This document shows, in pieces, positions 3,394 to 16,845 of a DNA stretch of 20,000 bases (position 1 is the first letter of the stretch; each line of letters begins with the position of its first letter). Source of the stretch: Deltaproteobacteria bacterium (lineage in GTDB: Bacteria > JAGRBM01 > JAHCIT01); contig JAHCIT010000005.1 of NCBI GenBank assembly GCA_026129095.1, forward strand, positions 299,753 to 319,752, given 5' to 3'. The notes beneath the pieces were generated by a model that was not told where the DNA came from, did no database searches, and saw only the letters and a program-made list of their open reading frames with translations. Position numbers and translations under genes: made by a program.

Positions 3394-4668
3394 TTGATGG
3401 TCAAGATGAAGCCACGAGCAGCAGATTTCTACCGAATTAATCCGCCCGGCGTTTGTTCTCGCCGAAATAGATTAACTGCCGTCGATCTTTTTGCAGGCGC
3501 AGGCGGCATCTCGCTTGGGTTGATGAATTCTGGGTTCGATGTGCTTTTCGCGTCTGATATTTCCGGTCCGTGTATGGCGACGCATACGCTAAATCTTCCG
3601 AATATTAAATTCCAGCAAACCGATATCAGGTCTCTATCAGGCGCGAAAATATTGCGTCAGACTGGTTTAGGTCGGGGCGAGCTGGACCTATTGATTGGTG
3701 GGCCACCGTGCCAAGGTTTTAGTATCCTCGGACAACGTGTCCTTGAAGATCCTCGTAACCGCCTGTTTCAAGAGTTTGTTCGCATTGTTGGCGAACTGAA
3801 GCCCCGCGTCGCCGTGATCGAAAATGTCCCGGGCCTCGCTACCCTGAGCAAAGGTGTGCTTTTGAGTAGAATCGGGGCAGCCTTCGGAAGATTGGGTTAT
3901 CGTGTGGAATGCGCGGAGCTTTTAGCTGCCCAATATGGTGTTCCCCAGATGCGTTGGAGAATGTTTTTCGTCGCATGGCGGTCAGATTTCGGCCCGCGAA
4001 CTGCGGGTTTCCCCGTCCCAACTCATGGGCGATTGGGAATTGGTGATCTAGTCCCAAATCGAAAGATTACAGACGTCCAATCCAAAGGCTTCCTGTCAAT
4101 TTGGGATGCAATTAGTGATCTTCCGCCAATTGAGAGCGGCGAAGTCGGAACGATATATACGAATAAACCCAAATCGCCGTATCAAGTAGCCATGCGAGCA
4201 AACTGCAAACGCGCCGAATTGCACAATCACTATGCTCCAAAATTGTCACCCATAAATCTCCAGAGAATTCAGACGCTCCAACCCGGCCAAGACTGGCGAG
4301 ACTTACCACGAGAATTACTCCCTCCGGGGATGCAGCGCGCGCTACGAAAGGACCACACTCGTCGTTTTAGACGGATGAAGTGGGATGGCATTGCGCGCGC
4401 CATCATCACTAGATTTCGCGATCCCAAATCGGGGGAGTACATCCACCCCGACCAAACCCGCACGATAAGCATTCGGGAGGCTGCTCGTATTCAATCGTTT
4501 CCAGATTGGTTCGTGTTTGAAGGGAACTATACCGATCAGTACGATCAGATCGGGAATGCCGTTCCGCCACTATTGGCACGCGCTGTAGGAACTGAAATCC
4601 AACAGGCTCTTGCAGCAGCGAGTGTTGAGCGTATAGTGCCAAAATCACGATATAAAATTCCTGCGTGA
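3394..4668 (+). CDS. dcm: DNA (cytosine-5)-methyltransferase
   Basis: Motif I DLFAGAGG, IV GGPPCQGFS, VI ENVPG, VIII PQMRWR, IX REAARIQSFPD and X QIGNAVPP. The true start may be ATG 3397 or 3406. Confidence 0.97.
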   Translation: MMVKMKPRAADFYRINPPGVCSRRNRLTAVDLFAGAGGISLGLMNSGFDVLFASDISGPCMATHTLNLPNIKFQQTDIRSLSGAKILRQTGLGRGELDLLIGGPPCQGFSILGQRVLEDPRNRLFQEFVRIVGELKPRVAVIENVPGLATLSKGVLLSRIGAAFGRLGYRVECAELLAAQYGVPQMRWRMFFVAWRSDFGPRTAGFPVPTHGRLGIGDLVPNRKITDVQSKGFLSIWDAISDLPPIESGEVGTIYTNKPKSPYQVAMRANCKRAELHNHYAPKLSPINLQRIQTLQPGQDWRDLPRELLPPGMQRALRKDHTRRFRRMKWDGIARAIITRFRDPKSGEYIHPDQTRTISIREAARIQSFPDWFVFEGNYTDQYDQIGNAVPPLLARAVGTEIQQALAAASVERIVPKSRYKIPA

Positions 4669-5786
4669 TGAAGAAACCAAGCAAAGCCGCTCGTGGAAAT
4701 TATGTTAGCGAATGGTTCGGCCATCGCGTATTTCCGAATGTCGTAGCCGGGAAAAAGAGTTTGAAAGAGCAGCAAGCAGAGTCGTGCCCCTTCTTAACCG
4801 CTGCAATTGGTGAGGTCAGAACATGTATCAAAAGTAGTGCTGCGCGAGGTGTGTGCACGATCAACACTGCTACTAGTGGTACCAGAATGGATTGGCTGGT
4901 CTGCCCATACCGAGCTCTTGATCCGTCACTTCTTGAAAGTGCGGTCAGACGGCTATTCGGATTTCGCGAAAGCCAAGCTGTATATATCATTCCTGCCATT
5001 CGGTTAGAGGCAGAGAAAATCAGAGAAGAGATAGGCCAAAGGCTCCGATCAGGAGATCGGGTATTTATTTATTTTGACGAAAAACTAGGCGGCGAACTAA
5101 GTATACCCGCAACTGCGAAGTCGCCAGAGTTTTCCTTCGACGTCACAATAATCGAAATCGAATTATCAGATGGTCGGCCGCATGTTGGCCGTTTTGGCGT
5201 TATTGAAATTCAGACCATGGATTTCCACGGCTCATATAGAAAGGCCGTTGCTAATCTCAAGGACGCTCTTCGGCTGCACCCAAAAGATTTTGCTACATCA
5301 TTACAGACCAATCAAAACTGGTTGAGTGAGGATATTGAAGGTCCAAATATAGCCAATGTGTTTAAACGAACATTCTATCAAATGATGTTTAAGTTTCAGC
5401 TCGGTCAAAATCCACGTTGTGCAGGATGTGTCCTTGCCGTTCCACTGTCGGTTTGGGAAAGTTGGCAGCGTCACTTGGGACAACCAGAGCTGAGATCAGA
5501 GCCAGATGGGACATTCAGTCTGTTCCCAAGTGGTGGTGCCCGACCCCCCATTGTACCGGCTTGGATATACGTATTTGATATAAGTTCTATGAGTCGAACA
5601 TCGCCCAGCCCACTAGTAATTTCAAAGATTATTGCTACCGATGCGACATCTATTTCTCACTATGCACTTCAGGTCGCACCCGCAGCAGCATTAGAAAATA
5701 TAGCATCTGCAACGGGTATGTTGACGCTTTTGGCACGCCGTATAAGCAGGCTTTGGCCGGAGTTAGGTACAACGTTAACGGTGTGA
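4665..5786 (+). CDS. NotI-family type II restriction endonuclease
   Basis: EWFGHRVFP, Cys4 metal site (CPFL, CIK, GVC, VCPYR), KLGGELSI, SPEFSFD, EIQTMDFHGSY, EGPNIANVFKRTFYQM and CAG all match my recollection of R.NotI. The start overlaps the MTase stop (GTGA/TGATG). Confidence 0.92.
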   Translation: MMKKPSKAARGNYVSEWFGHRVFPNVVAGKKSLKEQQAESCPFLTAAIGEVRTCIKSSAARGVCTINTATSGTRMDWLVCPYRALDPSLLESAVRRLFGFRESQAVYIIPAIRLEAEKIREEIGQRLRSGDRVFIYFDEKLGGELSIPATAKSPEFSFDVTIIEIELSDGRPHVGRFGVIEIQTMDFHGSYRKAVANLKDALRLHPKDFATSLQTNQNWLSEDIEGPNIANVFKRTFYQMMFKFQLGQNPRCAGCVLAVPLSVWESWQRHLGQPELRSEPDGTFSLFPSGGARPPIVPAWIYVFDISSMSRTSPSPLVISKIIATDATSISHYALQVAPAAALENIASATGMLTLLARRISRLWPELGTTLTV

Positions 5787-6043
5787 GGATTCCTTCCGTA
5801 GCGAATTATTGCGGGGGGGGATGATGATTGACACGTCCAGCAGGACGGACCAATCGTACCAGATACGAGGATGAATCCATGATGGCCCGGGAACCCCAAA
5901 GGCATCTGGTTTGAGACTAGCCTTGGAGTGCACGGAATTGTCACGCGGTGTGCCATCTGGCGAAAACAGGATAATGCATTTGGGGTGTTGTAAAAATCGT
6001 ATGGATATTTAAAATACGAATGATAGGTGCCATACTTTCCCTA

Positions 6044-6311
6044 ATGGCGGGGAAGCTCGTGACACTTGTGGTCACCTTCGACCTGGATGAAGACGATGAT
6101 TACGACGATGCGTACAAGGTCTTAGCTAACTTCAATCTTGAGCCCGTAACCACGAAAAAAATTGCCATTGCCGAGCACTACAGTGATGGGGAAGGTAACT
6201 ATTGAAAATGCTGCTGCGGCTCGCGACGCAATTTTGGAGGTATTGAGGGCTGCCGGTTTGACCGTTAAACAAATCCTGGTTGTTGACGCAAACAAATGGG
6301 CCTCTAAATGA
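6044..6311 (+). pseudogene. Small GhoS/Cas2-like (ferredoxin-fold) protein, frameshifted at an A7 tract
   Basis: The first frame MAGKLVTLVVTFDLDEDDDYDDAYKVLANFNLEPVTTKK continues in the +1 frame after A7 (6155-6161) as LPLPSTTVMGKVTIENAAAARDAILEVLRAAGLTVKQILVVDANKWASK* (stop 6309-6311). The joined product is 88 aa. Confidence 0.55.
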
Positions 6312-6425
6312 ACCTGATCTCGGGCTGCTGACTGTGCTAAAACCGGTGCACACGCACGGCTGCTTTACATCAAGAGACACGCGGCGCCCTTCCAGACGAT
6401 CGCGCTGGAAGACCTATGACAGAGC

Positions 6426-7064
6426 CTAATGCAAAAATTCATTAAATTTGAAGATGAAATTTCCGACCGATGCGACTTTGCTTAAGGGTTCGAGCAGTCT
6501 TGAAATAATACCGGCGTCGGGCTTCGTCTTAGAGAACTGCCGTTCAATTTCATCCAAGTCGCCCAAATGCTCACGTCTCTCAACGTCGGTCAGATTTGCG
6601 TCACTGCTTAGAGCGTTCTTTGCGGCCCTAATTAGGGTGGCCAAAGTTTCTGAATCGACTGGACTGGGAAGGGTTTGGCTAATTGAGCTGTGCTTTCCCG
6701 TGAAAGCTATCTGGTTACTATTTCCATGCACGTTTACGACATTTACTTCGTGCTGGACATTATTGCCATCGTCGCTGCCGTCACGGTTTGATTCGACAAA
6801 CATTCGTCCCTTCCCGGTCAGTTCCGCGTGAACCATTCCCTTGGGAAGAAATAGGCATTTGGCTATGCCTTGATCTTGCAGAGCATGCCCAGCGTCGATG
6901 AACCATCCGGAATCTGGCACGTCTATATCGAGAGCTCCCGCAATTTCCGGAAGCGGATAGTAGTGTGAACCCTTCTCTTGATCGAGGAGATAAAGCTGCT
7001 CAACAAGTTGGTTGAAGAATTCTGTGAAGGTAACCCGTGCCATAGAAGTTTTTTCCTGCGTCAT
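6426..7064 (-). CDS. Hypothetical protein (N-terminal winged-helix-like domain, N/V/G-rich linker, C-terminal helical bundle)
   Basis: 212-aa ORF. ALQDQGIA...AELTGKGRMFVE is a typical wHTH wing signature, and the C-terminus is amphipathic helical. Confidence 0.7.
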   Translation of the reverse strand: MTQEKTSMARVTFTEFFNQLVEQLYLLDQEKGSHYYPLPEIAGALDIDVPDSGWFIDAGHALQDQGIAKCLFLPKGMVHAELTGKGRMFVESNRDGSDDGNNVQHEVNVVNVHGNSNQIAFTGKHSSISQTLPSPVDSETLATLIRAAKNALSSDANLTDVERREHLGDLDEIERQFSKTKPDAGIISRLLEPLSKVASVGNFIFKFNEFLH

Positions 7065-7184
7065 ACACCTGAAATCCAGTTATTCGAGTTTCGAAGCTGA
7101 ACTGTCCCAGATTACAAGATTGCTGATGGAGCCTCTATATTTCCCCATAATATCACATGGTTATATTTTTTATTTTTCGTACCC

Positions 7185-7212
7185 TTGACGTTTTTTGAGC
7201 GATAGCCATTTT
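7185..7212 (+). promoter_or_regulatory. Possible sigma-70 promoter for the MBL/E2-E1-JAB operon
   Basis: TTGACG at 7185-7190, preceded by a T-rich UP-like tract. The -10 (CATTTT at 16-nt spacing) is weak. Confidence 0.3.
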
Positions 7213-7370
7213 AAGCAATGAGGGCTTTGGGGCTAAATCATTTGGTTTGGCCGACGTTGTGTTTTGGGAAGGCGTGAGCCTCAAAGACTTCATTCTTCGA
7301 TCTCTTTTCGGCAACTCCTTTCCAGAATGGCACGATGTTGAATGCTGAAGTGGCATTTAAGGGAGTTACC

Positions 7371-8474
7371 GTGACCTCCGAAGACTTGTATCCGAAAAGC
7401 AATGTAATGCGTGTCCTTTTTCTGTACGTTGGGCAGGGAGAGGCAACCCTTTTTCTCGTACCTGACGGCCTTGGTGGACACATCTCCATGCTTGTGGACT
7501 GCAACTATTCGCCGTCACTCAACGGAATCGACCTGCCATGCTTTTTAGCGGATACGCTCCCTAAGAATTCCAAGGGCAGACCGGTTCTCGACTTGTTCGT
7601 TAATACGCACCCTCATTCGGATCATCTTGGTGGCCTCAAAGCTCTACGGCAGGCCATAGAGATTCAGAACGTCTGGCACAGCGGTCATAATCCTGGCCGG
7701 GAACACGGTGATGCCTATAAAGAGCTGCAAACCCTGATGAAAGAAGTGGAAGACCGAAAGGGAAAGGTTGAAGAACTTCAGGGATCCCGGACGGCGGTCA
7801 AATTCGGAGCCGCTGAAGTTCATATCCTGGCGCCAGCCGAATACGTGAAAGATGAAATCGCCGACGAAAAGGCCGAAACACGCTATCAGCGTATACATGA
7901 GCATTGTGCGGTGCTTCGGGTAAGATACGGCTCCGCCGGCAAAAAAGTAGGTGTCCTGGTGACCGGGGATGCCGATAAAGCCGCATGGGAAAATCACATC
8001 ACCGATTACCACGGTGCAAAAGAAGAGAACCGGCTAAAATCGGAAATACTTAGTGCTTCCCACCACGGGTCCAGAACGTTTTTCAAAACGGATGAGGACG
8101 ATGACAAGCCGTACACCAAACATCTCGATTACATCCAGCCAGAACGCTTGGTAATTTCCGCGCCGGCCCAGAAGGACAGTCCTCACGATCATCCGCACGA
8201 TGATGCTCTTGAACTTTATCAAACATACATCGAAACGGACTGCATTCACCATATGGGAGCCGGGCGTTGGTCATTTCAACTCGATGTTGATGACAAAGGG
8301 GATTACGAACTTGAAGAGGACCGAGGTAAAATTGCGGATGAATACCCGGCTTCGGATGATGATGAAAAATCAGACAAAGGCGGCGGCAGTGGCGGCACAA
8401 AAGCTACCATCGCCAGCACGCCCATCAGCCGTGTCGGCAAAACCCATCCAATGGGGATGCCAAGCGAGCGGTAA
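7371..8474 (+). CDS. ComEC/Rec2-like metallo-beta-lactamase-fold hydrolase (putative nuclease effector)
   Basis: VGQGEA, LVDC, THPHSDHLGG (HxHxDH), TGDA, SHHGS, ISA and HPH. GTG 7371 follows the RBS AAGGGAG (track start is 7335). There are no TM segments. Confidence 0.92.
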   Translation: MTSEDLYPKSNVMRVLFLYVGQGEATLFLVPDGLGGHISMLVDCNYSPSLNGIDLPCFLADTLPKNSKGRPVLDLFVNTHPHSDHLGGLKALRQAIEIQNVWHSGHNPGREHGDAYKELQTLMKEVEDRKGKVEELQGSRTAVKFGAAEVHILAPAEYVKDEIADEKAETRYQRIHEHCAVLRVRYGSAGKKVGVLVTGDADKAAWENHITDYHGAKEENRLKSEILSASHHGSRTFFKTDEDDDKPYTKHLDYIQPERLVISAPAQKDSPHDHPHDDALELYQTYIETDCIHHMGAGRWSFQLDVDDKGDYELEEDRGKIADEYPASDDDEKSDKGGGSGGTKATIASTPISRVGKTHPMGMPSER

Positions 8475-10861
8475 TGTTCCCAGGCATTCCATGGTTCGTT
8501 GAGCATCCTGATCTGTATCGATCGGAGGCTAGTGAACTTCGAGAAAAGTTCCCCGAAATGACGGAGATGCCGGAACCGGATATTTCGGGGCGTGTCTACT
8601 TCTATGGCGCTTTGAAATTCCACTCCGGACGAACGACAACTTCCGTCAATATCGTTTTGTATTATCCAGCCGATTTTCCGTATTCGTCGCCCGCTGTTAT
8701 CCCGGTAGAAAAATTGCCCCACGAGTTGGGGCAAGAAGCACCGCTTCTGCTTGATCGCTCGAATATCCGTTTCTTTTCCGCCCGTCACCAAATGGCTAGC
8801 GGAATGATTTGTCTTTACGAAGCAGATGGCCGCCCTTGGCACCATCTTGCCGTGACGGGTGTTGAAGCACTCCACAGGGCCAGGAAATGGCTACGTCACG
8901 CAATACGAGGGCAATTCCCTAGCGATCTCGATGGCGATCATGCAGAACTCTCAGAACATTACCAGGCAACTGGTGACGTATTGGTCGGCCCGGCAATGCA
9001 TCGAACTAATCTAGGGGCTCCGAAGCGGTTCCTAGCCGTTCAACTTCGACCTAAGCAGCAACTATTCGCGGTAACTCATGTCCAATATGAACACGGATGG
9101 GCAGATGATCGAGCCGTCTTTAATAGACTAATGCCTGAAGCATTTGGGAACGAGCAGTGGTGGGATTCCGCAGGGACGACAGAAAATCTGGATATTTTGC
9201 GGGTGAAACCGGACTGTCTGGTCGGCGAGTGCTACCCCATTTCCGGGGAGCCTCGGCCATATCGATCAGCTTCCGAATTCGCCCAAACGCTATATCCGGA
9301 AAAGGGCGCCGCAGCCATTGAAGCTCTTCAAGAAAAATATGCTGTTGAGCGGACCTGCCGGGAAAAGGTGGTATTGCCTATTCAATATCCAGGCAGGGCA
9401 GGCAGTTGGGAATGGCTATTTATCGAATTGCAAATAAAAAACACTGCTCCTGAACGAATCAAAGCTCCCACAGGGGAGATGGTCCCTCTCTTAGATTTAA
9501 GTCCTTCATCCCGAACAGCACTCGCTACTGCTGTCCCAACAGTATTACGCCAACATGATTTACAGCGCAGAAGTTTGGAGCTTCGCAATGGTGGCCGAGC
9601 CCAGCCGGACATTAATAACTGGACGGTATCGCTATTTGGAGCCGGAGCCATCGGCTCCGAAACGGGCGTGCTTCTTGCCAAAGCGGGAATCGGGAAACTG
9701 AAGATATGGGACAACCAAATCCTTTCAGCCGGGAATACCATTAGGCATCTATCCGGGCTCTTTGGTGTCGGGTTTCCCAAGGCGTCGCTGACGGAACTGA
9801 TGGTTAAGCAGCACAATCCGCATTGTGAGGTGGCGTCAACTTTTGGGGATGCCCTCGATGCGATAACGAGAAACCCGAATGATGCATGGGGATCCAATGC
9901 GACTATCAGCACCATCGCCGATGATGGTGTCGAGTTGCGGTTGAATAAGCTGGCAGTATCGAGCGGCAAGACGGTTTACTATTTGCGCGCCCTCAGGTCC
10001 GGTTCGGTAGGTCAACTGCTGCGGGCTATACCTGGCAGTGGTGCGTGTCTGGAATGTCTGGCGCATTATCTGCAAGATGAGACGCCGGATCCAAAATCGT
10101 TCCCAATGGATGAAATCCCCGGAGAAATTGTCGCTCGTGAATGCGGTAGACCCATACTTGCGGCAAGTGCAATGGATCTTACGACCGTAGCGGCATTTGG
10201 CAGCAGACTTATTCTTGGCGATCTGGCGCAACCGTCTGAAAACAATTTATGGGTTTGGACGACCGATGGTATCCCAGGACATTCGGAACTGGCCAAGCCA
10301 TTTTCGATGGCCTCGTCGTTTTTACCTCCGCACCCAGCATGTTCAGTGTGCCGCCCCAAGGCGATTGGCAATGTTCATTTTCCAAAGGACGTTCAAGCTC
10401 GAATGATAGATTTGGCTCGGCAACATGAGCCGAACGAGACGGGCGGTATGCTTATCGGCTATCGGAAGGGACAGGACGTATTTGTTCTGGAGGCAAGTGA
10501 CGCGGGACCAAAGGCCACCAGCATGCCGTCACGGTTTGAGAGAGATGGGGGTTACAGTGAAACGTATCTAATGGATGCCGTGCGGCGGAATGGCAACGGT
10601 ATTGATTATGTCGGTGATTGGCACAGTCACCCCGGATATCCGGCAGTTCCTAGCCCAAGGGACGCGGTTTCTATGCATGATATTGCGGCAGATCCGGGAT
10701 ACCGTACCGATTACCCGATAATGGCGATAGTCGGCCTGCCCGATAGCGGGAAATCGGGTGATCCTGAATTCACCTGTTACTGCTTTCCCAAGGGGAGCAG
10801 TAGTTACAGCGTCGGTGTGAGGATCACCGATTCTGCTCCAGTATCACGAACAGGCGATTAA
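8474..10861 (+). CDS. E2-E1(ThiF)-JAB fusion, ubiquitin-like conjugation/deconjugation enzyme (Cap2+Cap3-like)
   Basis: E2: YPADFPYSSP...HQMASGMICLY. E1: GAGAIGS, D...GNTIRH...K, Zn pairs CLEC and CSVC, candidate catalytic ECG. JAB: ETGG...GDWHSHPG...PSPRD. TAATG coupling to the MBL gene. Confidence 0.92.
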   Translation: MFPGIPWFVEHPDLYRSEASELREKFPEMTEMPEPDISGRVYFYGALKFHSGRTTTSVNIVLYYPADFPYSSPAVIPVEKLPHELGQEAPLLLDRSNIRFFSARHQMASGMICLYEADGRPWHHLAVTGVEALHRARKWLRHAIRGQFPSDLDGDHAELSEHYQATGDVLVGPAMHRTNLGAPKRFLAVQLRPKQQLFAVTHVQYEHGWADDRAVFNRLMPEAFGNEQWWDSAGTTENLDILRVKPDCLVGECYPISGEPRPYRSASEFAQTLYPEKGAAAIEALQEKYAVERTCREKVVLPIQYPGRAGSWEWLFIELQIKNTAPERIKAPTGEMVPLLDLSPSSRTALATAVPTVLRQHDLQRRSLELRNGGRAQPDINNWTVSLFGAGAIGSETGVLLAKAGIGKLKIWDNQILSAGNTIRHLSGLFGVGFPKASLTELMVKQHNPHCEVASTFGDALDAITRNPNDAWGSNATISTIADDGVELRLNKLAVSSGKTVYYLRALRSGSVGQLLRAIPGSGACLECLAHYLQDETPDPKSFPMDEIPGEIVARECGRPILAASAMDLTTVAAFGSRLILGDLAQPSENNLWVWTTDGIPGHSELAKPFSMASSFLPPHPACSVCRPKAIGNVHFPKDVQARMIDLARQHEPNETGGMLIGYRKGQDVFVLEASDAGPKATSMPSRFERDGGYSETYLMDAVRRNGNGIDYVGDWHSHPGYPAVPSPRDAVSMHDIAADPGYRTDYPIMAIVGLPDSGKSGDPEFTCYCFPKGSSSYSVGVRITDSAPVSRTGD

Positions 10862-11496
10862 CTGGTTGGAAGATTTAGGAATTGGACAAAAAGTTCGCGG
10901 GCGTAATAGCAGCCGAAACGATGCATTCGGGCTAGAGCTATCGCAACTAGTACCCCGAAAAACAACACAGGCCTCCAGCTTCCTGGCCCCTTCTCCCATA
11001 ACAACAGGGCGGCCACGACCAATAAACTGGCGGCGATTCCACGGCACAGACCATAGTTGCCATTGAATCGTTCGATTCGCTCTAGTCGATTAGCCGCGCC
11101 AATTGCCGCATGTATCTGCCGGGTAATCGGCGTCCATTCGGCTGCCGCAATTTTGGATAATTCGACCGGTTCATTTCGGCCGAGTAATTTCTGGAGTCGT
11201 GTTTCGAGTAATCGCTGCTGATCGGGGCTTATCAAGTTCCCACGACCGGAAATAACCCAGTCGGTAGGCATTCCTTTGAAGATTTTCCAATGTAACGTTT
11301 CAAGCCTATTTCCTATGAACTGAACCAAATGGCCAGCGGCGTACGAAAGAATGATAAATACCCCAAGATCACCAAACGACGCTCCCGATGCTTTCGCTAT
11401 CAGGGAGATCGATGGATAGATCAACGATGCGCCGAATATAGTGATTGCGCCTGGCGCTAAAATGCCCGCGAATTCGTAAAAGTCGAATTGCTTCAC
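10858..11496 (-). CDS. Hypothetical membrane protein (2+2 TM helices)
   Basis: 212 aa with two N-terminal and two C-terminal hydrophobic helices around a soluble loop. Its stop shares TTAA with the convergent E2-E1-JAB stop. Confidence 0.8.
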   Translation of the reverse strand: MKQFDFYEFAGILAPGAITIFGASLIYPSISLIAKASGASFGDLGVFIILSYAAGHLVQFIGNRLETLHWKIFKGMPTDWVISGRGNLISPDQQRLLETRLQKLLGRNEPVELSKIAAAEWTPITRQIHAAIGAANRLERIERFNGNYGLCRGIAASLLVVAALLLWEKGPGSWRPVLFFGVLVAIALARMHRFGCYYARELFVQFLNLPTS

Positions 11497-11861
11497 GTTT
11501 GTGCATCCTCAAAGCGTATCTTTGGACAGGTTTTCCGCTTACGCAACTTTAGCCCGCTCACATTCCCCTTTCGGGTAGAAGGATAAAAAGAGATTCGAAC
11601 CGTTGGGACATTTAAGCCCTCAGACTCCGGCATAGTGCCCCAGCCCCTATCGCTTTTTGCGCCGGGGACCGGGATAAAACCGTCCACATAAACATAACCA
11701 GTGATACAAGAACTACCTAACCCCAGTAACTAACTAGCAATAACCCACATATCTAAAATCTCTTGGTCATTTTGCCCCTACCCCCTAATGTGGCGGGATT
11801 GTGCGCCAACCTTAACCGAGTAAAATGCAGACCTGAGACATGGCAAGGAGCCAATAGTTAT

Positions 11862-12380
11862 ATGAGCACGAAACCAAAGACCGATGAGACGAAAGAGAGC
11901 CTGTCCCGCAATGAGGGCAAATGGACCCCAAAGCTGATGGCAGCAGGGTGGGTCGCAATTCCAGCGGTAATCATTGAGCAACAGGCGAAATTGCAGCTCA
12001 GTCCGACCGACATGAATATCATTCTGTTTCTCGCATCCAAGTGGTGGGAGAAAGAAAAACTGCCGTTTCCCAGCAAGAAACATATCGCGGAAAGTATCGG
12101 TATCGACGCGAAGACGGTTCAGCGCAGGATCAGCCAGCTCGAAAAGGTCGGCTATCTGAAACGCCATATTCGTCAACGGGCCGACAAGAGCTTCAAGTCG
12201 AACATGTATTCGTTCGATGGGCTCATCGAAAAAAGCACTCCTCTTGCCATTGAAGCTGTGAAAGAGCGCGCAAAGAAGCGGCAAGAGCGGGAGAGCAATC
12301 TCATCAAGCAGGCCAAAAGACGTCCGAGCGCGGCGCACCTGAAAATGGTTAAGGACGCCGACGAAGAAGAAGCCGATTGA
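11862..12380 (+). CDS. Winged helix-turn-helix protein (HTH_36 / DnaD-N / replication-initiator-like)
   Basis: GWVAIP...LSPTDMNIIL...PFPSKKHIAESIGIDAKTVQRRISQLEKVGYLKR...SNMYSFDGL. ATG 11862 follows AAGGAG (track start is 11763). Confidence 0.85.
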   Translation: MSTKPKTDETKESLSRNEGKWTPKLMAAGWVAIPAVIIEQQAKLQLSPTDMNIILFLASKWWEKEKLPFPSKKHIAESIGIDAKTVQRRISQLEKVGYLKRHIRQRADKSFKSNMYSFDGLIEKSTPLAIEAVKERAKKRQERESNLIKQAKRRPSAAHLKMVKDADEEEAD

Positions 12381-12742
12381 CGCGGTGCCGTGGAGGCCGG
12401 TCGCATTCGACGAGTGGCCCGAGGTCTGAATAAAACAGGGCAGTTCCAGAAGCTAGCAGAAACCACTATGGCGGTGTGAAACGCCAAGGTGATTTCGACA
12501 TGAAAAGCAGCGGTGCTTTCAAGTTAGCTCAGGAGACCGAAGGAAAAAAGCCTTGGACCTGCCAGCAAGGGGCAGGAGATTTCGGAAGGGGTACGACCGG
12601 CCTCCTCAGCGCCGCTTCCACATACGAATCGTTGCTTGGGTAAATACATGCGAAGTTCGTCTTTATGGCATGCGAGCGAGGACATGCCTTGAATCGTGTC
12701 GCCAATACGACGAGCGTGTATTTTCATTTGGAGAGCGATTCG

Positions 12743-13633
12743 TCATGGCCGCTCGTACCAGTCAGGATGATCGATAAAACCAAGGCCGCTCCTGTCGGGT
12801 TGAGGGTATGTCGAATAGATCAAGACGGCACGCAGCCCTTGGCACTGTTGAAAGACATAGGCCGAATCAAAAGCAACACGTTTATCGATCCCGGATATTA
12901 GCGGAAAGGCAATCATCGTGAAGCGTTGAATATCCACGGCTACCGTGAAATTCCCGCTTGCGCCTTTCTTCCAGACGTCCTCAAATTTGTCGTTCCATTT
13001 CCGGCAGACGCGATTTTCCAGGGTTTTGCGCTGTTCATGCAGTCGAGGGTTGAAAAAGACGGGGGTGCCATCACGTGGGATCTGCTCTCCACCCTGAGAC
13101 GGATCAAGAGCACACGTAAGATCAATCAAATATTCCTTTGTCTCTTTGACAACTTTGAGGTCAGCATCTTTACCGTTGCCGAGAGGCACTTCCGTATCTG
13201 CGAGTTCACCGCGAGAGTCGAAGAAGCGCATGAGGAATAACTCCGAAACGGTACTTAGCCCTTCCGGATTGGTCATGGTCCCAATGCTCAGAAGCTTTGT
13301 GGCAGGCCGCGAGATATCCAATACCTTACGAAGTATTCGTATTGAACGATTCGCTTCGTTTACGAACGCCAATGCAAAACGGTCGAGATGGGAATCCGCG
13401 AAACGTGGATCACCCCTCTCGATCGCCTCGATCACTGCCAAGAATCGTGGAATCGTATTGACACGGTCGTCGGGTTGAAGTGTCCACCACCTCCGAAACT
13501 GCTTCGACTGAAAATGATCTCGCAGTAAATCGGGTGTTACCACGCTGGCGAATTCGGCGAATCTCCGTAATCCGGCAAAAGCCAACAACTGGAATTGGGG
13601 CAGGTCGGATTCTGTGTAGATTAATGCGGGCAT
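12743..13633 (-). CDS. Hypothetical protein, possible PD-(D/E)XK nuclease-like fold
   Basis: 296-aa ORF. STVSEL...EVPLGNGKDADLKV...YLIDLT resembles the E...D...(D/E)xK/T arrangement of restriction-endonuclease-like domains. Confidence 0.6.
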   Translation of the reverse strand: MPALIYTESDLPQFQLLAFAGLRRFAEFASVVTPDLLRDHFQSKQFRRWWTLQPDDRVNTIPRFLAVIEAIERGDPRFADSHLDRFALAFVNEANRSIRILRKVLDISRPATKLLSIGTMTNPEGLSTVSELFLMRFFDSRGELADTEVPLGNGKDADLKVVKETKEYLIDLTCALDPSQGGEQIPRDGTPVFFNPRLHEQRKTLENRVCRKWNDKFEDVWKKGASGNFTVAVDIQRFTMIAFPLISGIDKRVAFDSAYVFQQCQGLRAVLIYSTYPQPDRSGLGFIDHPDWYERP

Positions 13634-13813
13634 ATTGAAATCTAATCGTAGAATATAATTTTTCCATCCGGTCGGTCACGAAGCTAGTTAGAGAGTGTGG
13701 ATGACCCAGTTGTGCTAACCTGACCGGGCAAGTTCACCTGCACCAACAGGGAGTATGCCATTATGGATCCAGACGATATTGAATGTAACCTGCCTCTAAA
13801 CGCCAGATGACAA

Positions 13814-15751
13814 GTGCTGTCTGAACGAACCTCAAAACTTATTGAGGGGTGGGCGCGCACCTCCTACGATTCGTTCCGCATCCAGCAACCACAAATTGTG
13901 GTTGACGGCTTGTGGAAGCATGGCGACCGCTTTCTAATTTATTGCCCTAGTCTTGCCTCCGAAGCCACTTCCCGGAGTGGCAAACCGATCCGAGAATGGT
14001 TTGACCAAGAGTGCAGAGCGATCACGTGCCCGGTGGCTATTGTCCCCAGGCTTCCAATTGGTGCGCGCCGTCTTGCCGACAGAACTATTGCGGAAATAGG
14101 TCGCCTAACGGGTGAACCGATTACCCGAGCAGTTTTACAGAACGAAATCGACCTACAGGTTCCTGATTCATTTCCCGATTACTATACGGAAAGCGGCCCC
14201 GGCAGCGTAACGATACATGTTAGCCGAGAGCTTTCTCCCGAGGAGCAAGCTTGTCTTAGCCAATATCTAGAATCACAAGGCGGCGATTTTAAGATCATGG
14301 TCGAAACCCCTGAACGTGTTTCGGCGGCAATGGAAGATGAATCGCGCGCTGAGCAAAATATATCCAATATATTGCCGAAGCACGATCTAATTCTCCTACC
14401 AGCTCGAAAGTTACCCAAAAATCTTCCCGGCAACGTCAAGGATACATATGAAACCGACCAGGAGTTCTGGCTAGATCATAGGGATCGGATATGGTCAGAT
14501 CCGACATTTTCCGTCAATGACGTGTTACCGCCGACGTGGAACGAATCTTCTTCTAAAGGATTTGTAGACGCCTCAGTCTTTCCAGCATCCGATATTCGCA
14601 ACTATTTATCGCTATACGATGTGACATGCATCGCGCCGCCGTTAGACCGTGTGGTGTCAAAAGATGACGGCCTTGGACTTGGCGAGGACGAACTGGTCGA
14701 GTTGATGAAACTTGGCAGAGTCAGGTTGGTCTTTCCGCAATCACTGGACCGCTATTCGCCTTCATTGTTGGCGAAAGCTGCCGCCATAGCCCCTCAGGGT
14801 ATTCTATTTTCCCGACGGCTTGCCGCTGCGAGCATCTGCGACGTCCGGCGACGCGTTCCATTGCTATATCCTGCGTTCGATATTACTGAAAAAAGAAAAG
14901 TGATCCAGTTCCTGGATGTTCTTGCGACTAATGCAGCGTCTCCGCACGGAAAGAAACTTTGGAAAGCATTCGGCGACGGGCTTATCGAGTCATGGCATGG
15001 CCCGGAATATTCGATTCATCTTCGTGGCGCAGTGGGAACGCTCTCTTTTGGCTTTGGCACGATCATCGCCCGGGTCCAGCAAGAGTTCACAGGCCGAGAT
15101 CTTCGGTTGGAGATGTGGAGTTTCGGCTCGGCAGTTGAATGGGCCGGGGCCTTGGGGGCCGCGTTGAACGCACCGCCATCGAACGCGAACGGATACGATC
15201 AGGCTCCCTTGATGGAGCTACTTGCTCATTCATACAGCGGTGTGGTCTCTGACGCGGTACCGGTATTTTCGACCGAGCCCAACGTGATTGTTCCTGAACT
15301 GCTGACCATTTCGAAAGCGGTTCCCGCCGTCGAATTCGCGACCTCATTTATGAGCAGCGATATCAACCGATTTCGCTCACTTGTAAAGAATATGGCGGGC
15401 GCAGTAGTTACGCCGAAAGAACTTCACGCGGTTGTTGAAAAATATAATGCATCAATATCCGCATACGATAAGAACATGGAGCGTTGGTCGAGATGGGGAA
15501 TGAAAGGTCTTGTTTACGGCGGCGCACTCGCGGCGGCTGGCCCTTCGGGTCCAGCATGGGGGTTATTTCTCGATTGGCTCATTGAAGTGATCGAAAATCA
15601 CTTCGGAGAGAAGAGAATCGAAGTGCCGCCGCTTGATAGCATACTGGACTATTGCAAGGTCATTATGGGTCTGTCCGAACGTGGCGCTGTACTGGTATCC
15701 CGTATGCGGAATGACCTCAACAAGAAGCACGAACTTACCCGGTCCGCCTAG
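13814..15751 (+). CDS. Large hypothetical protein (645 aa)
   Basis: Long uninterrupted ORF with globular composition and no recognised catalytic motif. The start is uncertain. Confidence 0.8.
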   Translation: MLSERTSKLIEGWARTSYDSFRIQQPQIVVDGLWKHGDRFLIYCPSLASEATSRSGKPIREWFDQECRAITCPVAIVPRLPIGARRLADRTIAEIGRLTGEPITRAVLQNEIDLQVPDSFPDYYTESGPGSVTIHVSRELSPEEQACLSQYLESQGGDFKIMVETPERVSAAMEDESRAEQNISNILPKHDLILLPARKLPKNLPGNVKDTYETDQEFWLDHRDRIWSDPTFSVNDVLPPTWNESSSKGFVDASVFPASDIRNYLSLYDVTCIAPPLDRVVSKDDGLGLGEDELVELMKLGRVRLVFPQSLDRYSPSLLAKAAAIAPQGILFSRRLAAASICDVRRRVPLLYPAFDITEKRKVIQFLDVLATNAASPHGKKLWKAFGDGLIESWHGPEYSIHLRGAVGTLSFGFGTIIARVQQEFTGRDLRLEMWSFGSAVEWAGALGAALNAPPSNANGYDQAPLMELLAHSYSGVVSDAVPVFSTEPNVIVPELLTISKAVPAVEFATSFMSSDINRFRSLVKNMAGAVVTPKELHAVVEKYNASISAYDKNMERWSRWGMKGLVYGGALAAAGPSGPAWGLFLDWLIEVIENHFGEKRIEVPPLDSILDYCKVIMGLSERGAVLVSRMRNDLNKKHELTRSA

Positions 15752-15849
15752 CAGGTTAACTTCTGGAGGTCCGTGAATGTTCTGCTGTGCCGGGCTCCAT
15801 AGTGTCAATATATTGTTTCCGACACGTGAACGAGACGGAGATCACCCTC

Positions 15850-16569
15850 ATGCCTAAGAGCTGGACCAATGCGCTGCATTCATATTTTTATTGTGCCGAC
15901 CTTTATCGGTATCGAAACGCGCACAAGTATCCGAAGTATTTCAAATCCAAAAGCGCGGATCGCCAATCGACCGCAATTTTTGAAGATCGTTTTCGTTCGA
16001 AATGCGGCAGCGAACTGGAAGTCTGGTATGAGGTAACGTTCTGGAAAATGTACTCCATGAAAGGTAGGGGACAATACCAAACAGACGAGGCCATTCAAAA
16101 GATACTGACTGCCAAGAATACGGCGAAATGCCTAACACTGCTCGCCGACGATTTTATAAGTCATTGGTCTGACCCTATACGATTGAATGCACTACGGGCA
16201 GGGTTGGGTATGATTTCGAAGGCGAAGGTTATGGCTTTGCCGCTCACTTTTGTCAGTTTTCGCGATCCCTATAATTTCCCAATGATTGACACGGTAAGTG
16301 CGCGCTGGATCAATAAACATCTGCTGGCGCACAACCGCCCTGGACGACCACAACTGACCAAATTCGCTACAGTAAAACGAACAAAATCCGGATATTCTGT
16401 CGTTCGACATCCGGATATGCAGTCTTATATTCATTGGGTCGACTGGTGCCGGTGGGTACGCGATCGCCTGAATAGTTCAGGCGATACTGGAATTGATTGG
16501 CGAGCAAGAGACGTTGAAATGGCTGTATTCACCGCACAGCAGGATGGGCTCGCCCTGAATGTGCTTTGA
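15850..16569 (+). CDS. Hypothetical protein, HhH/OGG-like DNA glycosylase-like fold
   Basis: EVTFWK, MALPLTFVSFRDPYNFPMID, YIHWVDWC and WRARDVEMAVF resemble the WK...S..L...P..D...Y..Y...R.VE.AL pattern of stand-alone HhH-like glycosylase families. ATG 15850 is preferred to GTG 15787. Confidence 0.55.
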   Translation: MPKSWTNALHSYFYCADLYRYRNAHKYPKYFKSKSADRQSTAIFEDRFRSKCGSELEVWYEVTFWKMYSMKGRGQYQTDEAIQKILTAKNTAKCLTLLADDFISHWSDPIRLNALRAGLGMISKAKVMALPLTFVSFRDPYNFPMIDTVSARWINKHLLAHNRPGRPQLTKFATVKRTKSGYSVVRHPDMQSYIHWVDWCRWVRDRLNSSGDTGIDWRARDVEMAVFTAQQDGLALNVL

Positions 16570-16845
16570 CCGTTGTCGCGCCCAGAGGAGGGGATGGTGC
16601 CGACTACGCGACATCATGCTTCAATGAGTTTGTAATCCCATCAAGTTGGAAGACTGAGATCAGGATTAAAGTTATCTTCGACGATCTCTGTGCCAATTCG
16701 GCGGCTCGATCCTTTCGTCTTAAGAGGCGCATCGAGACCGAGACGAAATTGGGGGAAGTTCACTTGGATCACCCGTGCCCTTTACTAGATTACTGCCCTG
16801 CCATGTTCGCCAGGATATTCTCTGTTCTTCCCAAGCTCGGAAAAT

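What the first reader, a model, noticed from the sequence alone, without database searches (positions are those of the whole stretch)
7371..10861. Two-gene ubiquitin-like system: MBL hydrolase plus single-chain E2-E1-JAB, with no Ubl and no CD-NTase
Seen: a TAATG-coupled pair. The second protein holds an E2 (H-x4-G-x-I-C-L), a ~220-aa unassigned middle domain, a ThiF/E1 with both CxxC Zn motifs and a candidate catalytic Cys (ECG), and an intact JAB (E...HSH...S..D). Known: CBASS Cap2 (E2-E1) and Cap3 (JAB) conjugate and release a CD-NTase, and MBL + E2-E1-JAB operons are reported as the '6A-MBL' anti-phage system, whose mechanism is to my knowledge unresolved. Inference: this is a complete write-and-erase conjugation machine whose substrate is the MBL nuclease itself.
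Basis: partly seen in the sequence, partly recalled or inferred. Interest (0 to 1): 0.82.

Follow-up and report, generated by a model that had tools for sequence, protein, structure and literature searches.

The report
Divergent copy of 6A-MBL defence operon
This is a divergent copy of an already described bacterial anti-phage operon in which a nuclease-like enzyme, not ubiquitin, appears to be what a fused E2-E1-JAB enzyme attaches and detaches, with a small membrane protein as an overlooked third partner.

Summary
The "unassigned" middle domain matches the linker region of CBASS Cap2.

The architecture is not new. It is operon type 6a of Iyer et al. 2006, later named 6A-MBL. This scan has reported it before in at least six other genomes.

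This copy belongs to a divergent clade. It scores far below NCBIfam's 6A-MBL cut-offs (80 against 220 bits, 137 against 320 bits).

- The MBL has a disordered 37-residue tail.
- The tail carries an invariant Pro-x-Gly. Gly is the last residue, or is followed by 1-8 residues, in 113 of 120 homologues. Here it reads PMG plus five residues.
- MBLs that have no E2-E1-JAB neighbour have no such tail.
- The idea is already in print.

"Two-gene" is incomplete. A convergent Csx27-like four-helix membrane protein (10858-11496, minus strand) accompanies the pair in 14 of 22 loci.

Nothing was shown biochemically. Verdict: a new member of a known kind, of modest interest.

The parts
7371..8474 (+). MBL-fold (ComEC-like) metallo-hydrolase gene, 367 aa from GTG 7371 (the longest ORF starts at ATG 7335); stop TAA 8472-8474
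   Evidence: Pfam Lactamase_B 2e-6. NCBIfam best hit 6A-MBL_enzyme, 79.8 bits against a cut-off of 220. AF2 model pLDDT 86. Foldseek top hit is the ComEC beta-lactamase-like domain 9ic4, E 7.4e-20, TM 0.79 by target. Metal ligands are invariant in 20 sequences.
8361..8471 (+). Disordered C-terminal tail of the MBL (residues 331-367): an acidic and Gly-rich linker, then a conserved segment ending in PMG, then five further residues
   Evidence: pLDDT about 30 over residues 331-367. Alignments.
8448..8456 (+). Codons for Pro-Met-Gly (P360, M361, G362), the proposed adenylation and conjugation end. The following codons 8457-8471 (five residues) would have to be trimmed off
   Evidence: P360 and G362 are invariant and M361 is at least 90% conserved in 20 sequences. 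An x-M-G lies within the last 12 residues in 113 of 120 homologues. Sequence read.
8474..10861 (+). Single-chain E2-linker-E1-JAB gene, 795 aa
8474..8923 (+). E2 (UBC/UEV-fold) domain, residues 1-150, catalytic Cys113
   Evidence: VIA-align Z 8.8-10.5 to UEV, UFC1 and UBE2S over residues 4-150. H105, Q106 and C113 are invariant.
8924..9568 (+). Middle domain, residues about 151-365, counterpart of the Cap2 linker region
   Evidence: Model residues 10-365 align with Cap2 7to3_A residues 7-365, Z 12.3, 277 residues aligned. Foldseek E 3.8e-7 to 7tqd_B.
9569..10369 (+). E1 (ThiF-type adenylation) domain, residues about 366-632, with a GxGxxG motif, two CxxC pairs and Cys557
   Evidence: Pfam ThiF 2.9e-15. 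PDB sequence hits to Cap2 and UBA5. Invariant residues.
10370..10858 (+). JAB/JAMM metallopeptidase domain, residues about 633-795 (E655, H717, H719, S727, D730)
   Evidence: Pfam Prok-JAB 1.3e-15. PADLOC JAB 5.7e-23. Invariant residues.
10858..11496 (-). Csx27-like membrane protein, 212 aa, with four hydrophobic segments (about 8-26, 44-62, 147-165, 177-195). It is convergent with the E2-E1-JAB gene and overlaps its end by 4 nt
   Evidence: Hydropathy. Homologues lie next to the pair in 14 of 22 loci. The two sub-families are related (hhalign probability 95%, E 2.9e-8). 6 of 10 family members match the PADLOC Csx27 model, best 2.2e-13, while the window's own copy scores only E 0.019. No Pfam, NCBIfam or PHROG hit.

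Best explanation
This is a three-gene anti-phage module of the 6a / 6A-MBL kind, carried on a GC-poor island. It works like type II CBASS with the cyclase replaced by a ComEC-like MBL hydrolase, probably a nuclease or phosphodiesterase.

Proposed steps, all inferred:
1. The JAB domain trims the five residues after Gly362 of the MBL tail and exposes a C-terminal glycine.
2. The E1 domain adenylates that glycine and takes it as a thioester on Cys557.
3. The MBL passes to E2 Cys113 and is then joined to an amine on an unknown target.
4. The JAB domain also reverses the conjugate, so that the MBL's activity or location is switched on during infection and off otherwise.
5. The Csx27-like 4-TM protein is the MBL's membrane partner. 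MBL plus TM protein is the older core cassette, and E2-E1-JAB is a regulatory add-on.

Shown here: the genes, the folds, the intact catalytic residues, the gene linkage and the conservation of the tail.
Inferred: adenylation, conjugation, trimming, the target, nuclease activity and the anti-phage role.
For: 1. Gene linkage. 21 of 21 loci with a full-length relative of the fusion have an MBL homologue directly upstream on the same strand (E 2.8e-26 to 4.5e-122).

2. The tail.
- Residues 331-367 are disordered (pLDDT about 30) behind a confident MBL fold.
- P360 and G362 are invariant in 20 sequences.
- In the 21 aligned MBLs the Gly is the last residue in 9 and is followed by 1-5 residues in 12.
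- In 120 cluster representatives, x-M-G lies in the last 12 residues of 113. Gly is last in 35, is followed by 1-3 residues in 72 and by 4-8 residues in 6.

3. Natural control.
- Canonical 6A-MBL loci that pass NCBIfam cut-offs (L070, L078) have MBLs ending exactly in ...RAG.
- Two further MBLs beside an E2-E1-JAB gene end ...TQG (L113) and ...HG plus 2 residues (L125).
- Related MBLs paired only with the membrane protein (L114, L116, L117, L093 and the second MBL of L084) are 271-355 aa and have no such tail.

4. In CBASS loci of the same search, the gene before Cap2 ends in ...GRFG...GGFA or ...PPFA. This is the same layout, a substrate C-terminus abutting the E1 gene.

5. All E2, E1 and JAB catalytic residues are invariant in 40 relatives.

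6. The first 365 residues match Cap2 in structure (Z 12.3).

7. The MBL's nearest solved fold is the ComEC beta-lactamase-like domain (E 7.4e-20).

8. Literature.
- Operon type 6a is described in PMC1779556 (passages and Table 1).
- Passages in a review (PMC13276650) and in a preprint's methods (10.1101/2025.09.30.679545) describe 6A-MBL as a phage defence system.
- A discussion passage in PMC11601596 says MBL pathways use the E2-E1 fusion to conjugate their enzyme to unknown targets.

9. Setting. GC falls to 0.47-0.53 over about 3400-17500, against 0.57-0.60 in the flanks. The stretch also holds a Dcm methylase and a T5orf172/PDC-S57 gene.
Against: - No experiment of any kind stands behind conjugation, trimming, nuclease activity or defence for this clade.
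- Both proteins score far below NCBIfam's 6A-MBL equivalog cut-offs (79.8 against 220 bits; 137.1 against 320 bits). Transfer of the P. aeruginosa phenotype is therefore an extrapolation.
- The window's tail has a five-residue extension. That is longer than in 107 of the 113 motif-bearing homologues, and it would make conjugation depend on an unproven trimming step.
- 7 of 120 homologues show no x-M-G near the end.
- The membrane gene was not found in 8 of 22 loci. Two of those contigs are too short to judge. In the window the gene is convergent, not co-transcribed.
- The paper that named and tested 6A-MBL (van den Berg 2024) could not be read.
Confidence: 0.65

Rival explanations
1. The E2-E1-JAB protein activates some other carboxylate, such as an unlinked small protein, a peptide or a metabolite. 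The MBL tail is only a docking or autoinhibitory peptide and is never covalently transferred.
For: No conjugate has been observed. The window's tail does not end in Gly as encoded. The E1 superfamily also includes enzymes that adenylate without protein conjugation (MoeB/ThiF hits).
Against: No Ubl-like or other conserved small ORF accompanies the pair in 22 loci. A near-terminal Gly that is conserved across clades, with RAG in one clade and PMG in the other, is hard to explain as a mere docking peptide. The tail is lost when the E2-E1-JAB gene is absent. The E2 Cys and the JAB site are invariant.
Confidence: 0.12
2. The module is not primarily a phage defence. It is a ubiquitin-regulated DNA uptake and degradation device related to natural competence, in which a Csx27-like channel and a ComEC-like nuclease process incoming DNA.
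For: The MBL's nearest fold is the ComEC nuclease domain. The partner is Csx27-like. Two citing passages say Makarova et al. 2019 linked Csx27 proteins to competence genes and ubiquitin signalling and predicted ssDNA channels (PMC7642515; 10.1101/2021.11.02.466367). The 2019 paper itself was not held.
Against: The module lies on a GC-poor island with R-M and other defence-type genes. Relatives of the membrane gene sit next to SIR2-HerA, Schlafen/AlbA_2, DUF4365 and type I R-M genes. 6A-MBL is listed as a phage defence system. The two readings overlap, since degrading incoming DNA is itself a defence.
Confidence: 0.12
3. The Gly end is activated but joined to a non-protein acceptor such as a membrane lipid, as Atg7/Atg3 do with Atg8. 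This would anchor the MBL at the membrane.
For: The CBASS and MBL-pathway E2-E1 fusions are described as related to eukaryotic Atg7 (PMC11601596 passage). A membrane partner is conserved. The acceptor is unknown in all related systems.
Against: No data bear on the acceptor. The CBASS conjugates described in that preprint are to 'unknown targets', and no lipid is shown.
Confidence: 0.06

Closest known systems
6A-MBL anti-phage system (operon type 6a of Iyer, Burroughs and Aravind 2006, PMC1779556; NCBIfam NF058523 '6A-MBL_cap2_3' and NF058524 '6A-MBL_enzyme')
   Same: A specialised MBL gene is followed by a single polypeptide with E2, E1 and JAB in that order. The MBL has a flexible tail with a conserved Gly at or near its end. 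A membrane protein often lies beside the pair.
   Different: The scores are far below the curated cut-offs (79.8 against 220 bits; 137.1 against 320 bits), as they are for other members of this clade (L014, L016). The tail motif is PMG, usually followed by 1-3 residues and here by five, instead of a terminal RAG. MBL motif 2 is HxHxDH instead of HxDxDH. Whether the two clades of fusion proteins form one group is unresolved (AU test p 0.20).
Type II CBASS: CD-NTase with Cap2 (E2-E1) and Cap3 (JAB)
   Same: The E2-linker-E1 part superposes on E. cloacae Cap2 (Z 12.3). The JAB domain matches Cap3 models. The substrate gene lies directly upstream, and its C-terminus abuts the E1 gene.
   Different: There is no CD-NTase in the window or in its genome. 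Cap2 and Cap3 are fused into one chain. The presumed substrate is a hydrolase, not a signal-making cyclase.
PADLOC phage-defence candidate PDC-M48 (small multi-TM protein plus MBL hydrolase). PDC systems are untested predictions of the 'guilt-by-embedding' preprint 10.1101/2024.01.29.577857 (passages seen; PDC-M48 itself is not named in its main text)
   Same: It pairs a ComEC-like MBL with a 4-TM protein. Stand-alone pairs whose membrane gene belongs to the window's family have MBLs that match PDC-M48B strongly (L116 2.1e-97, L117 4.2e-119, L093 9e-80).
   Different: The window's MBL matches PDC-M48B only weakly (3.5e-6). It also carries the Gly tail and an E2-E1-JAB partner, both of which the stand-alone pairs lack.
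Csx27, the 4-TM accessory protein of type VI-B1 CRISPR-Cas, and its family (Makarova et al. 2019; title seen in a reference list; paper not held)
   Same: Both have four predicted membrane helices. 6 of 10 members of the window's membrane-protein family match the PADLOC Csx27 model (best 2.2e-13).
   Different: The window's own copy matches only at E 0.019 over residues 1-69. No CRISPR-Cas genes are present in the window.
MBL (beta-lactamase-like) nuclease domain of the competence protein ComEC
   Same: It is the best structural match (9ic4, E 7.4e-20, TM 0.79 by target). A weak NCBIfam ComEC/Rec2 hit also exists.
   Different: Here the domain is a separate soluble protein, not the C-terminal domain of a large channel protein, and it has an added conjugation-type tail.

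Membership tests
6A-MBL / operon type 6a | One polypeptide with E2, E1 and JAB domains in that order | tested here: met
   Pfam ThiF and Prok-JAB. E2 fold by structure, Z 8.8-10.5. Order read.
6A-MBL / operon type 6a | Adjacent gene for a specialised MBL-fold protein | tested here: met
   TAATG-coupled in the window. Present in 21 of 21 related loci.
6A-MBL / operon type 6a | Scores above the NCBIfam equivalog cut-offs of NF058524 and NF058523 | tested here: not met
   79.8 bits against 220 and 137.1 bits against 320, although each model is the best hit. Canonical loci L070 and L078 score 386-413 and 625-630 bits.
6A-MBL / operon type 6a | Intact catalytic residues of E2 (Cys), E1 (ATP site, Cys), JAB (E, HxH, S, D) and the MBL metal site | tested here: met
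   Invariant columns.
6A-MBL / operon type 6a | MBL ends in a flexible tail with a C-terminal glycine | tested here: inconclusive
   The tail and the invariant Gly362 are present. As encoded, Gly is followed by five residues, so a free Gly end needs an untested trimming step.
6A-MBL / operon type 6a | Protection against phage | not testable with these tools
   Known only from citing passages. The primary paper is not held.
Type II CBASS | CD-NTase (SMODS) cyclase gene | tested here: not met
   None among the window's ORFs. 0 matches to PF18144 in the window's own genome, 96.65% complete.
Type II CBASS | Cap2-type E2-linker-E1 architecture | tested here: met
   7to3_A Z 12.3 over model residues 10-365. 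Sequence hits to the Cap2 E1 domain. PADLOC E1-E2 models down to 4.9e-27.
Type II CBASS | Cap3-type JAB isopeptidase | tested here: met
   NF050170 6.4e-11, below its cut-off, and PADLOC JAB 5.7e-23. Here it is fused to the E1 domain.
Bil / Bub bacterial ubiquitination operons | A separate beta-grasp ubiquitin-like protein gene | tested here: not met
   No such family in 18 larger ORFs of the window or in 10 small ORFs near the pair. No conserved small ORF across 22 loci.
PADLOC candidate PDC-M48 | MBL matches the PDC-M48B models | tested here: inconclusive
   Weak hits only, 3.5e-6 to 1.5e-3.
PADLOC candidate PDC-M48 | Multi-TM partner matches the PDC-M48A models | tested here: inconclusive
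   The window's copy has no hit at E up to 0.05. 3 of 10 family members match (best 1.5e-4).
Csx27 family of 4-TM proteins | Four predicted transmembrane helices in about 200-230 aa | tested here: met
   Hydropathy segments 8-26, 44-62, 147-165 and 177-195. This was a simple Kyte-Doolittle window, not a dedicated predictor.
Csx27 family of 4-TM proteins | Sequence match to a Csx27 profile | tested here: inconclusive
   Window copy E 0.019, 13.4 bits. 6 of 10 aligned relatives match, best 2.2e-13. L027, 41% identical to the window's copy, matches at 3.5e-8.
ComEC-type MBL nucleases | MBL fold closest to the ComEC domain, with metal ligands present | tested here: met
   9ic4 E 7.4e-20. Ligands.
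ComEC-type MBL nucleases | Nuclease activity | not testable with these tools
The next-best folds are phosphodiesterases (Pce) and RNases, so the substrate is open.

The most novel reading that the evidence does not exclude
The E2-E1-JAB protein does not merely 'prime' the MBL but places it. After JAB trimming, the Gly end is joined to the Csx27-like 4-TM protein or to a membrane lipid. A ComEC-like nuclease is thereby fixed at a DNA-conducting membrane channel and destroys phage DNA as it enters, and JAB releases it again. On this reading the conjugation enzyme is an optional regulatory layer added to an older two-gene membrane-protein plus MBL cassette (PDC-M48 type), just as Cap2/Cap3 are an optional layer on CBASS. 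The PMG-plus-extension clade would be a pro-enzyme form that needs maturation.
Probability: 0.15. Interest if true: 0.65.

Novelty: new member of a known kind. Interest (0 to 1): 0.3.

Why it matters
- If the MBL is conjugated through its own tail, then bacterial E1-E2 machinery tags whole effector enzymes, not only cyclases. The window's clade, in which Gly is usually followed by a few residues, would offer a clean test of JAB-dependent maturation.
- This clade is missed by NCBIfam's curated 6A-MBL models, so annotation pipelines that rely on them probably under-count the system.
- The link between tail-bearing MBLs with E2-E1-JAB and tail-less MBLs with only the membrane partner suggests a type I / type II relationship like that in CBASS. 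That would tell experimenters which genes form the minimal effector.
- None of this changes the basic picture already in the literature.

Tried and rejected
- Complex prediction. E2-linker-E1 (residues 1-632) with the MBL cut at Gly362 scored 0.09 and 0.14 against a mark of 0.32. The tool gives no verdict, so this is evidence neither way.
- Word-based homologue search with the fusion protein found only 3 relatives, one of them close. The exhaustive HMMER search was needed: 82 representatives at E up to 1e-30. I aligned 39 of its 150 listed hits, choosing full-length ones of 760-840 aa.
- Search among 40 relatives' genomes with NF058523 gave only ThiF/MoeB-type partial hits, none over the cut-off.
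- Foldseek listed MPN/JAB-fold proteins over about 215-240 columns of the N-terminal model (E about 1e-4 to 5e-3). This hinted at an MPN-like middle domain. VIA-align did not bring them up, and its rows mostly cover residues 4-151. The fold class of the middle domain beyond 'like Cap2' therefore stays open.
- Phylogeny. A quick tree placed the three canonical 6A-MBL fusions apart from the window's clade, with Cap2 proteins in between, under long-branch warnings. The AU test does not reject one clade of all 24 MBL-linked fusions (p 0.20). I make no claim of independent origin.
- Metagenome scan for the membrane protein. The 10-row alignment had no stretch conserved enough. A 2-row alignment found a single locus.
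- The promoter and terminator scan of 6900-11900 found 2 promoter-like sites against 5.7 expected and 7 terminator-like sites against 5.1 expected. It is uninformative.
- Papers not held: van den Berg 2024, Ledvina 2023 and Makarova 2019. Their content is known to me only through citing passages or recall. bioRxiv supplements, where PDC-M48 would be defined, are closed.
- Searches for a mechanistic paper on the MBL pathway found none beyond PMC11601596.
- Rejected: that the pair is a CBASS remnant (no cyclase). Also rejected: that the genome's other E1/JAB genes belong to this system. Contig C21 holds a MoeB-type E1 with a desampylase-like JAB.

Full report
WHAT IS THERE. The window lies at the end of a contig of a 3.67-Mb genome.

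Two plus-strand ORFs are coupled by TAATG, with TAA at 8472-8474 and ATG at 8474-8476.
- The first runs to 8474.
- The second (8474-10861) encodes 795 aa.

GC falls to 0.47-0.53 over about 3400-17500, against 0.57-0.60 in the flanks. This stretch also holds:
- a Dcm-type methylase;
- a replication-initiator-like winged-helix protein;
- a T5orf172/Sel1 protein that matches PADLOC candidate PDC-S57.
The setting is therefore a mobile, defence-type island.

THE DOMAINS ARE REAL. Pfam finds ThiF (373-544, 2.9e-15) and Prok-JAB (637-755, 1.3e-15) but no E2. CBASS E1-E2 and JAB models of PADLOC match down to 4.9e-27.

An exhaustive HMMER search found 82 cluster representatives at E up to 1e-30. I aligned the window protein with 39 of the 150 listed hits, choosing full-length ones.
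- E2: H105, Q106, C113.
- E1: G389/G391/G394, D413, R424, K436, C525/C528, E556-C557, C623/C626.
- JAB: E655, H717/H719, S727, D730.

A model of residues 1-365 has pLDDT 85.3.
- It superposes on E2/UEV folds over residues 4-150: Tsg101 UEV Z 10.5, UFC1 Z 9.5, UBE2S Z 8.8.
- Over residues 10-365 it superposes on E. cloacae Cap2 residues 7-365 (7to3_A, Z 12.3, 277 residues aligned, rmsd 5.8).
- Foldseek gives E 3.8e-7 to 7tqd_B.
- A sequence profile of this region against PDB gave only weak hits, but 17 of the 21 were E2 enzymes (E 0.02-0.08).

The MBL model (pLDDT 86) is closest to the beta-lactamase-like domain of ComEC (9ic4, E 7.4e-20). Next come the phosphorylcholine esterase Pce and the RNase Z/J types. 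Its metal ligands are invariant.

IT IS A KNOWN KIND OF OPERON. Iyer, Burroughs and Aravind (2006) described operon type 6a as usually two genes: a triple-module E2-E1-JAB protein and a specialised MBL (PMC1779556, passages and Table 1).

A review passage (PMC13276650) and a preprint's methods (10.1101/2025.09.30.679545) name it '6A-MBL' and count it among phage, including jumbo-phage, defences. Both credit van den Berg et al. 2024, which I could not read.

NCBIfam now has equivalog models for both proteins. They are the best hits here but fall far below their cut-offs: 79.8 against 220 bits and 137.1 against 320 bits. Loci L070 and L078 pass the cut-offs easily (386-413 and 625-630 bits). Other members of the window's clade (L014, L016) fail as the window does. 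The window therefore represents a distinct, divergent clade.

Members of this clade were found in contigs labelled Myxococcota, Bacteroidota, Planctomycetota, Acidobacteria, Nitrospirota and others. Whether the two clades of fusion proteins form one group to the exclusion of CBASS Cap2 is unresolved. A quick tree separates them, with long-branch warnings. The AU test does not reject a single clade (p 0.20).

This scan has reported the same system before in at least six other genomes.

LINKAGE. Of the 80 loci kept from the genome collection, 21 match the fusion protein over nearly its full length. All 21 have an MBL homologue directly upstream on the same strand, one of them cut by the contig end. 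The MBL is better conserved than the fusion: 39-52% identity to the window's copy, against 25-49%.

THE TAIL. Residues 331-367 of the MBL are predicted disordered (pLDDT about 30). After an acidic and Gly-rich linker comes a conserved segment ending in Pro-Met-Gly.
- P360 and G362 are invariant in 20 sequences.
- In the 21 aligned MBLs the Gly is the very last residue in 9 and is followed by 1-5 residues in 12. The window has five.
- Among 120 cluster representatives from an independent search, 113 have x-M-G within the last 12 residues. Gly is last in 35, is followed by 1-3 residues in 72 and by 4-8 residues in 6. Seven have no such motif.

A conserved glycine at or just before the C-terminus, on a flexible tail, is the hallmark of ubiquitin-like precursors. 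The same layout is seen in the CBASS loci, where the gene before Cap2 ends in ...GRFG...GGFA or ...PPFA.

There is also a natural control.
- Canonical 6A-MBL MBLs end exactly in ...RAG (L070, L078; also the transposon-disrupted L084).
- Two further MBLs beside an E2-E1-JAB gene end ...TQG and ...HG plus 2 residues (L113, L125).
- Related MBLs with no E2-E1-JAB neighbour (L114, L116, L117, L093 and the second MBL of L084) are 271-355 aa and stop right after the globular domain.

It is comparative evidence only, and the samples are small.

The idea is also not new. [quoted passage not shown] Earlier reports of this scan reached the same reading.

A THIRD GENE. The ORF at 10858-11496 on the minus strand is convergent with the fusion gene and overlaps its end by 4 nt. 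It encodes a 212-aa protein with four hydrophobic segments.
- Homologues lie next to the pair in 14 of 22 loci, the window included. They may be upstream, downstream or convergent. Two of the eight loci without one are contigs too short to judge.
- The two sub-families are related (hhalign probability 95%, E 2.9e-8).
- No Pfam, NCBIfam or PHROG model matches. The protein atlas lists only 'hypothetical protein' clusters.
- 6 of 10 aligned members match PADLOC's Csx27 model (best 2.2e-13), 4 match 'tm_4' and 3 match PDC-M48A. The window's own copy reaches only E 0.019.

Csx27 is the 4-TM accessory protein of type VI-B CRISPR. Citing passages report that Makarova et al. 2019 linked its family to competence genes and ubiquitin signalling and predicted ssDNA channels. 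The paper itself was not held.

In a sample of 401 Bacteroidota genomes the membrane family occurred in 14. I examined 15 contexts: 13 new genomes, one further locus and one metagenome contig.
- 9 of the 15 have an adjacent MBL.
- 4 of the 15 have an E2-E1-JAB gene (L112, L113, L121, L125).
- 4 have only MBL plus membrane protein (L114, L116, L117, L093). The MBLs of these match PADLOC candidate PDC-M48B (5.3e-17 to 4.2e-119).
- One MBL-bearing locus (L115) is cut by a contig end.
- The remaining 6 of the 15 have no adjacent MBL. Some of them sit by Schlafen/AlbA_2, DUF4365 or type I R-M genes.

Earlier notes of this scan had already tied MBL-plus-4-TM pairs to PDC-M48 and to 6A-MBL. I tested that lead and it holds. 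MBL plus membrane protein looks like the core cassette, and E2-E1-JAB looks like an add-on that comes with the Gly tail.

HOW IT MOST LIKELY WORKS (inferred).
1. JAB trims the five residues after Gly362.
2. E1 adenylates the Gly and forms a thioester at Cys557.
3. E2 Cys113 passes the MBL to an amine on an unknown target.
4. JAB reverses the link.
The result is control over the activity or placement of a ComEC-like hydrolase that works with a Csx27-like membrane protein, probably against incoming phage nucleic acid.

Differences from the canonical clade may matter for biochemistry: HxHxDH instead of HxDxDH in MBL motif 2, and PMG plus an extension instead of a terminal RAG.

LIMITS.
- No experiment stands behind any step.
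- The complex prediction gave no verdict.
- The promoter and terminator scan was uninformative.
- The key primary papers could not be read.
- Hydropathy was a simple sliding window.
- The association counts rest on tens of loci, and many of those are related to one another.

VERDICT. This is a new, divergent member of a known kind of system. Interest 0.3.

Noticed in passing
window 3394-5786: A Dcm-type C5 cytosine methylase (3394-4668; Pfam 1.8e-63, PADLOC MTase_II 9.4e-112) overlaps by 4 nt a 373-aa ORF (4665-5786) with no family match. The second ORF may be the cognate restriction enzyme of a type II R-M pair.
   Followed up: partly
window about 3400-17500: A GC-poor stretch (0.47-0.53 against 0.57-0.60 in the flanks) holds the R-M pair, the MBL module, a replication-initiator-like gene and other orphan genes. 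It is probably a mobile island. No tRNA gene was found in the window, and its ends were not mapped.
   Followed up: partly
window 11763-12380 (+): A 205-aa winged-helix protein (HTH_36 / DnaD_N) matches 16 PHROG families, 12 of them replication-initiation, primosomal or helicase-loader proteins (best 8.6e-11). It is divergent from the membrane gene and suggests the island can replicate or derives from a phage-like element.
   Followed up: no
window 13814-16892 (+): Three co-directional ORFs of 645, 260 and 108 aa have no Pfam, NCBIfam or PADLOC match. The 645-aa protein matches PHROG 36744 (unknown function, 1.8e-43). This is an uncharacterised operon in a defence-type island.
   Followed up: no
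window 16846-18177 (-): A 443-aa protein has an N-terminal T5orf172 (GIY-YIG-like) domain and a Sel1 repeat. It matches PADLOC candidate PDC-S57 (3e-17).
   Followed up: no
window 6426-7064 (-): A 212-aa ORF, divergent from the MBL gene, has weak matches to PADLOC candidate PDC-M14B (1.7e-06) and no Pfam hit.
   Followed up: no
L003 (G000:C7) 1-770: The same genome holds a stand-alone Cap3-like JAB gene (273-770; 100.6 bits to the JAB end of the 6A-MBL model). It lies right at the start of a contig, after an ORF that is open at the contig edge. This may be a second Cap2/Cap3-type system cut by the assembly. No SMODS cyclase was found in the genome.
   Followed up: partly
L084 1816-10555: An Ectopseudomonas oleovorans contig carries a canonical 6A-MBL fusion gene (636.8 bits). 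Its MBL is reduced to a C-terminal remnant fused in frame behind a Tn3-family transposase ORF, which still ends in ...RAG. A Csx27-like gene and a short tail-less MBL lie downstream.
   Followed up: partly
L043 2734-6203: A Halorubrum contig has a CD-NTase-like gene followed by a fused E2-E1-JAB protein of 778 aa. This is a CBASS-type system with Cap2 and Cap3 in one chain, in an archaeon. The cyclase ORF as called does not end in Gly or Ala.
   Followed up: no
L113 6001-11577 and L121 115-6711: In two Bacteroidota genomes a patatin-like phospholipase gene lies directly after the E2-E1-JAB gene, with the MBL and Csx27-like genes in the same cluster. This is a four-gene variant.
   Followed up: no
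L034 4998-7363; L019 7396-8098: In L034 the fusion gene is split into two ORFs (4998-6902 and 6911-7363). In L019 the membrane gene is split into two (7396-7872 and 7826-8098). These are likely frameshifts or sequencing errors in those MAGs.
   Followed up: no
L016: A contig labelled as a Citrobacter freundii MAG carries a copy whose fusion protein nests among Bacteroidota sequences in the tree. This points to either recent transfer or a mis-binned contig.
   Followed up: no
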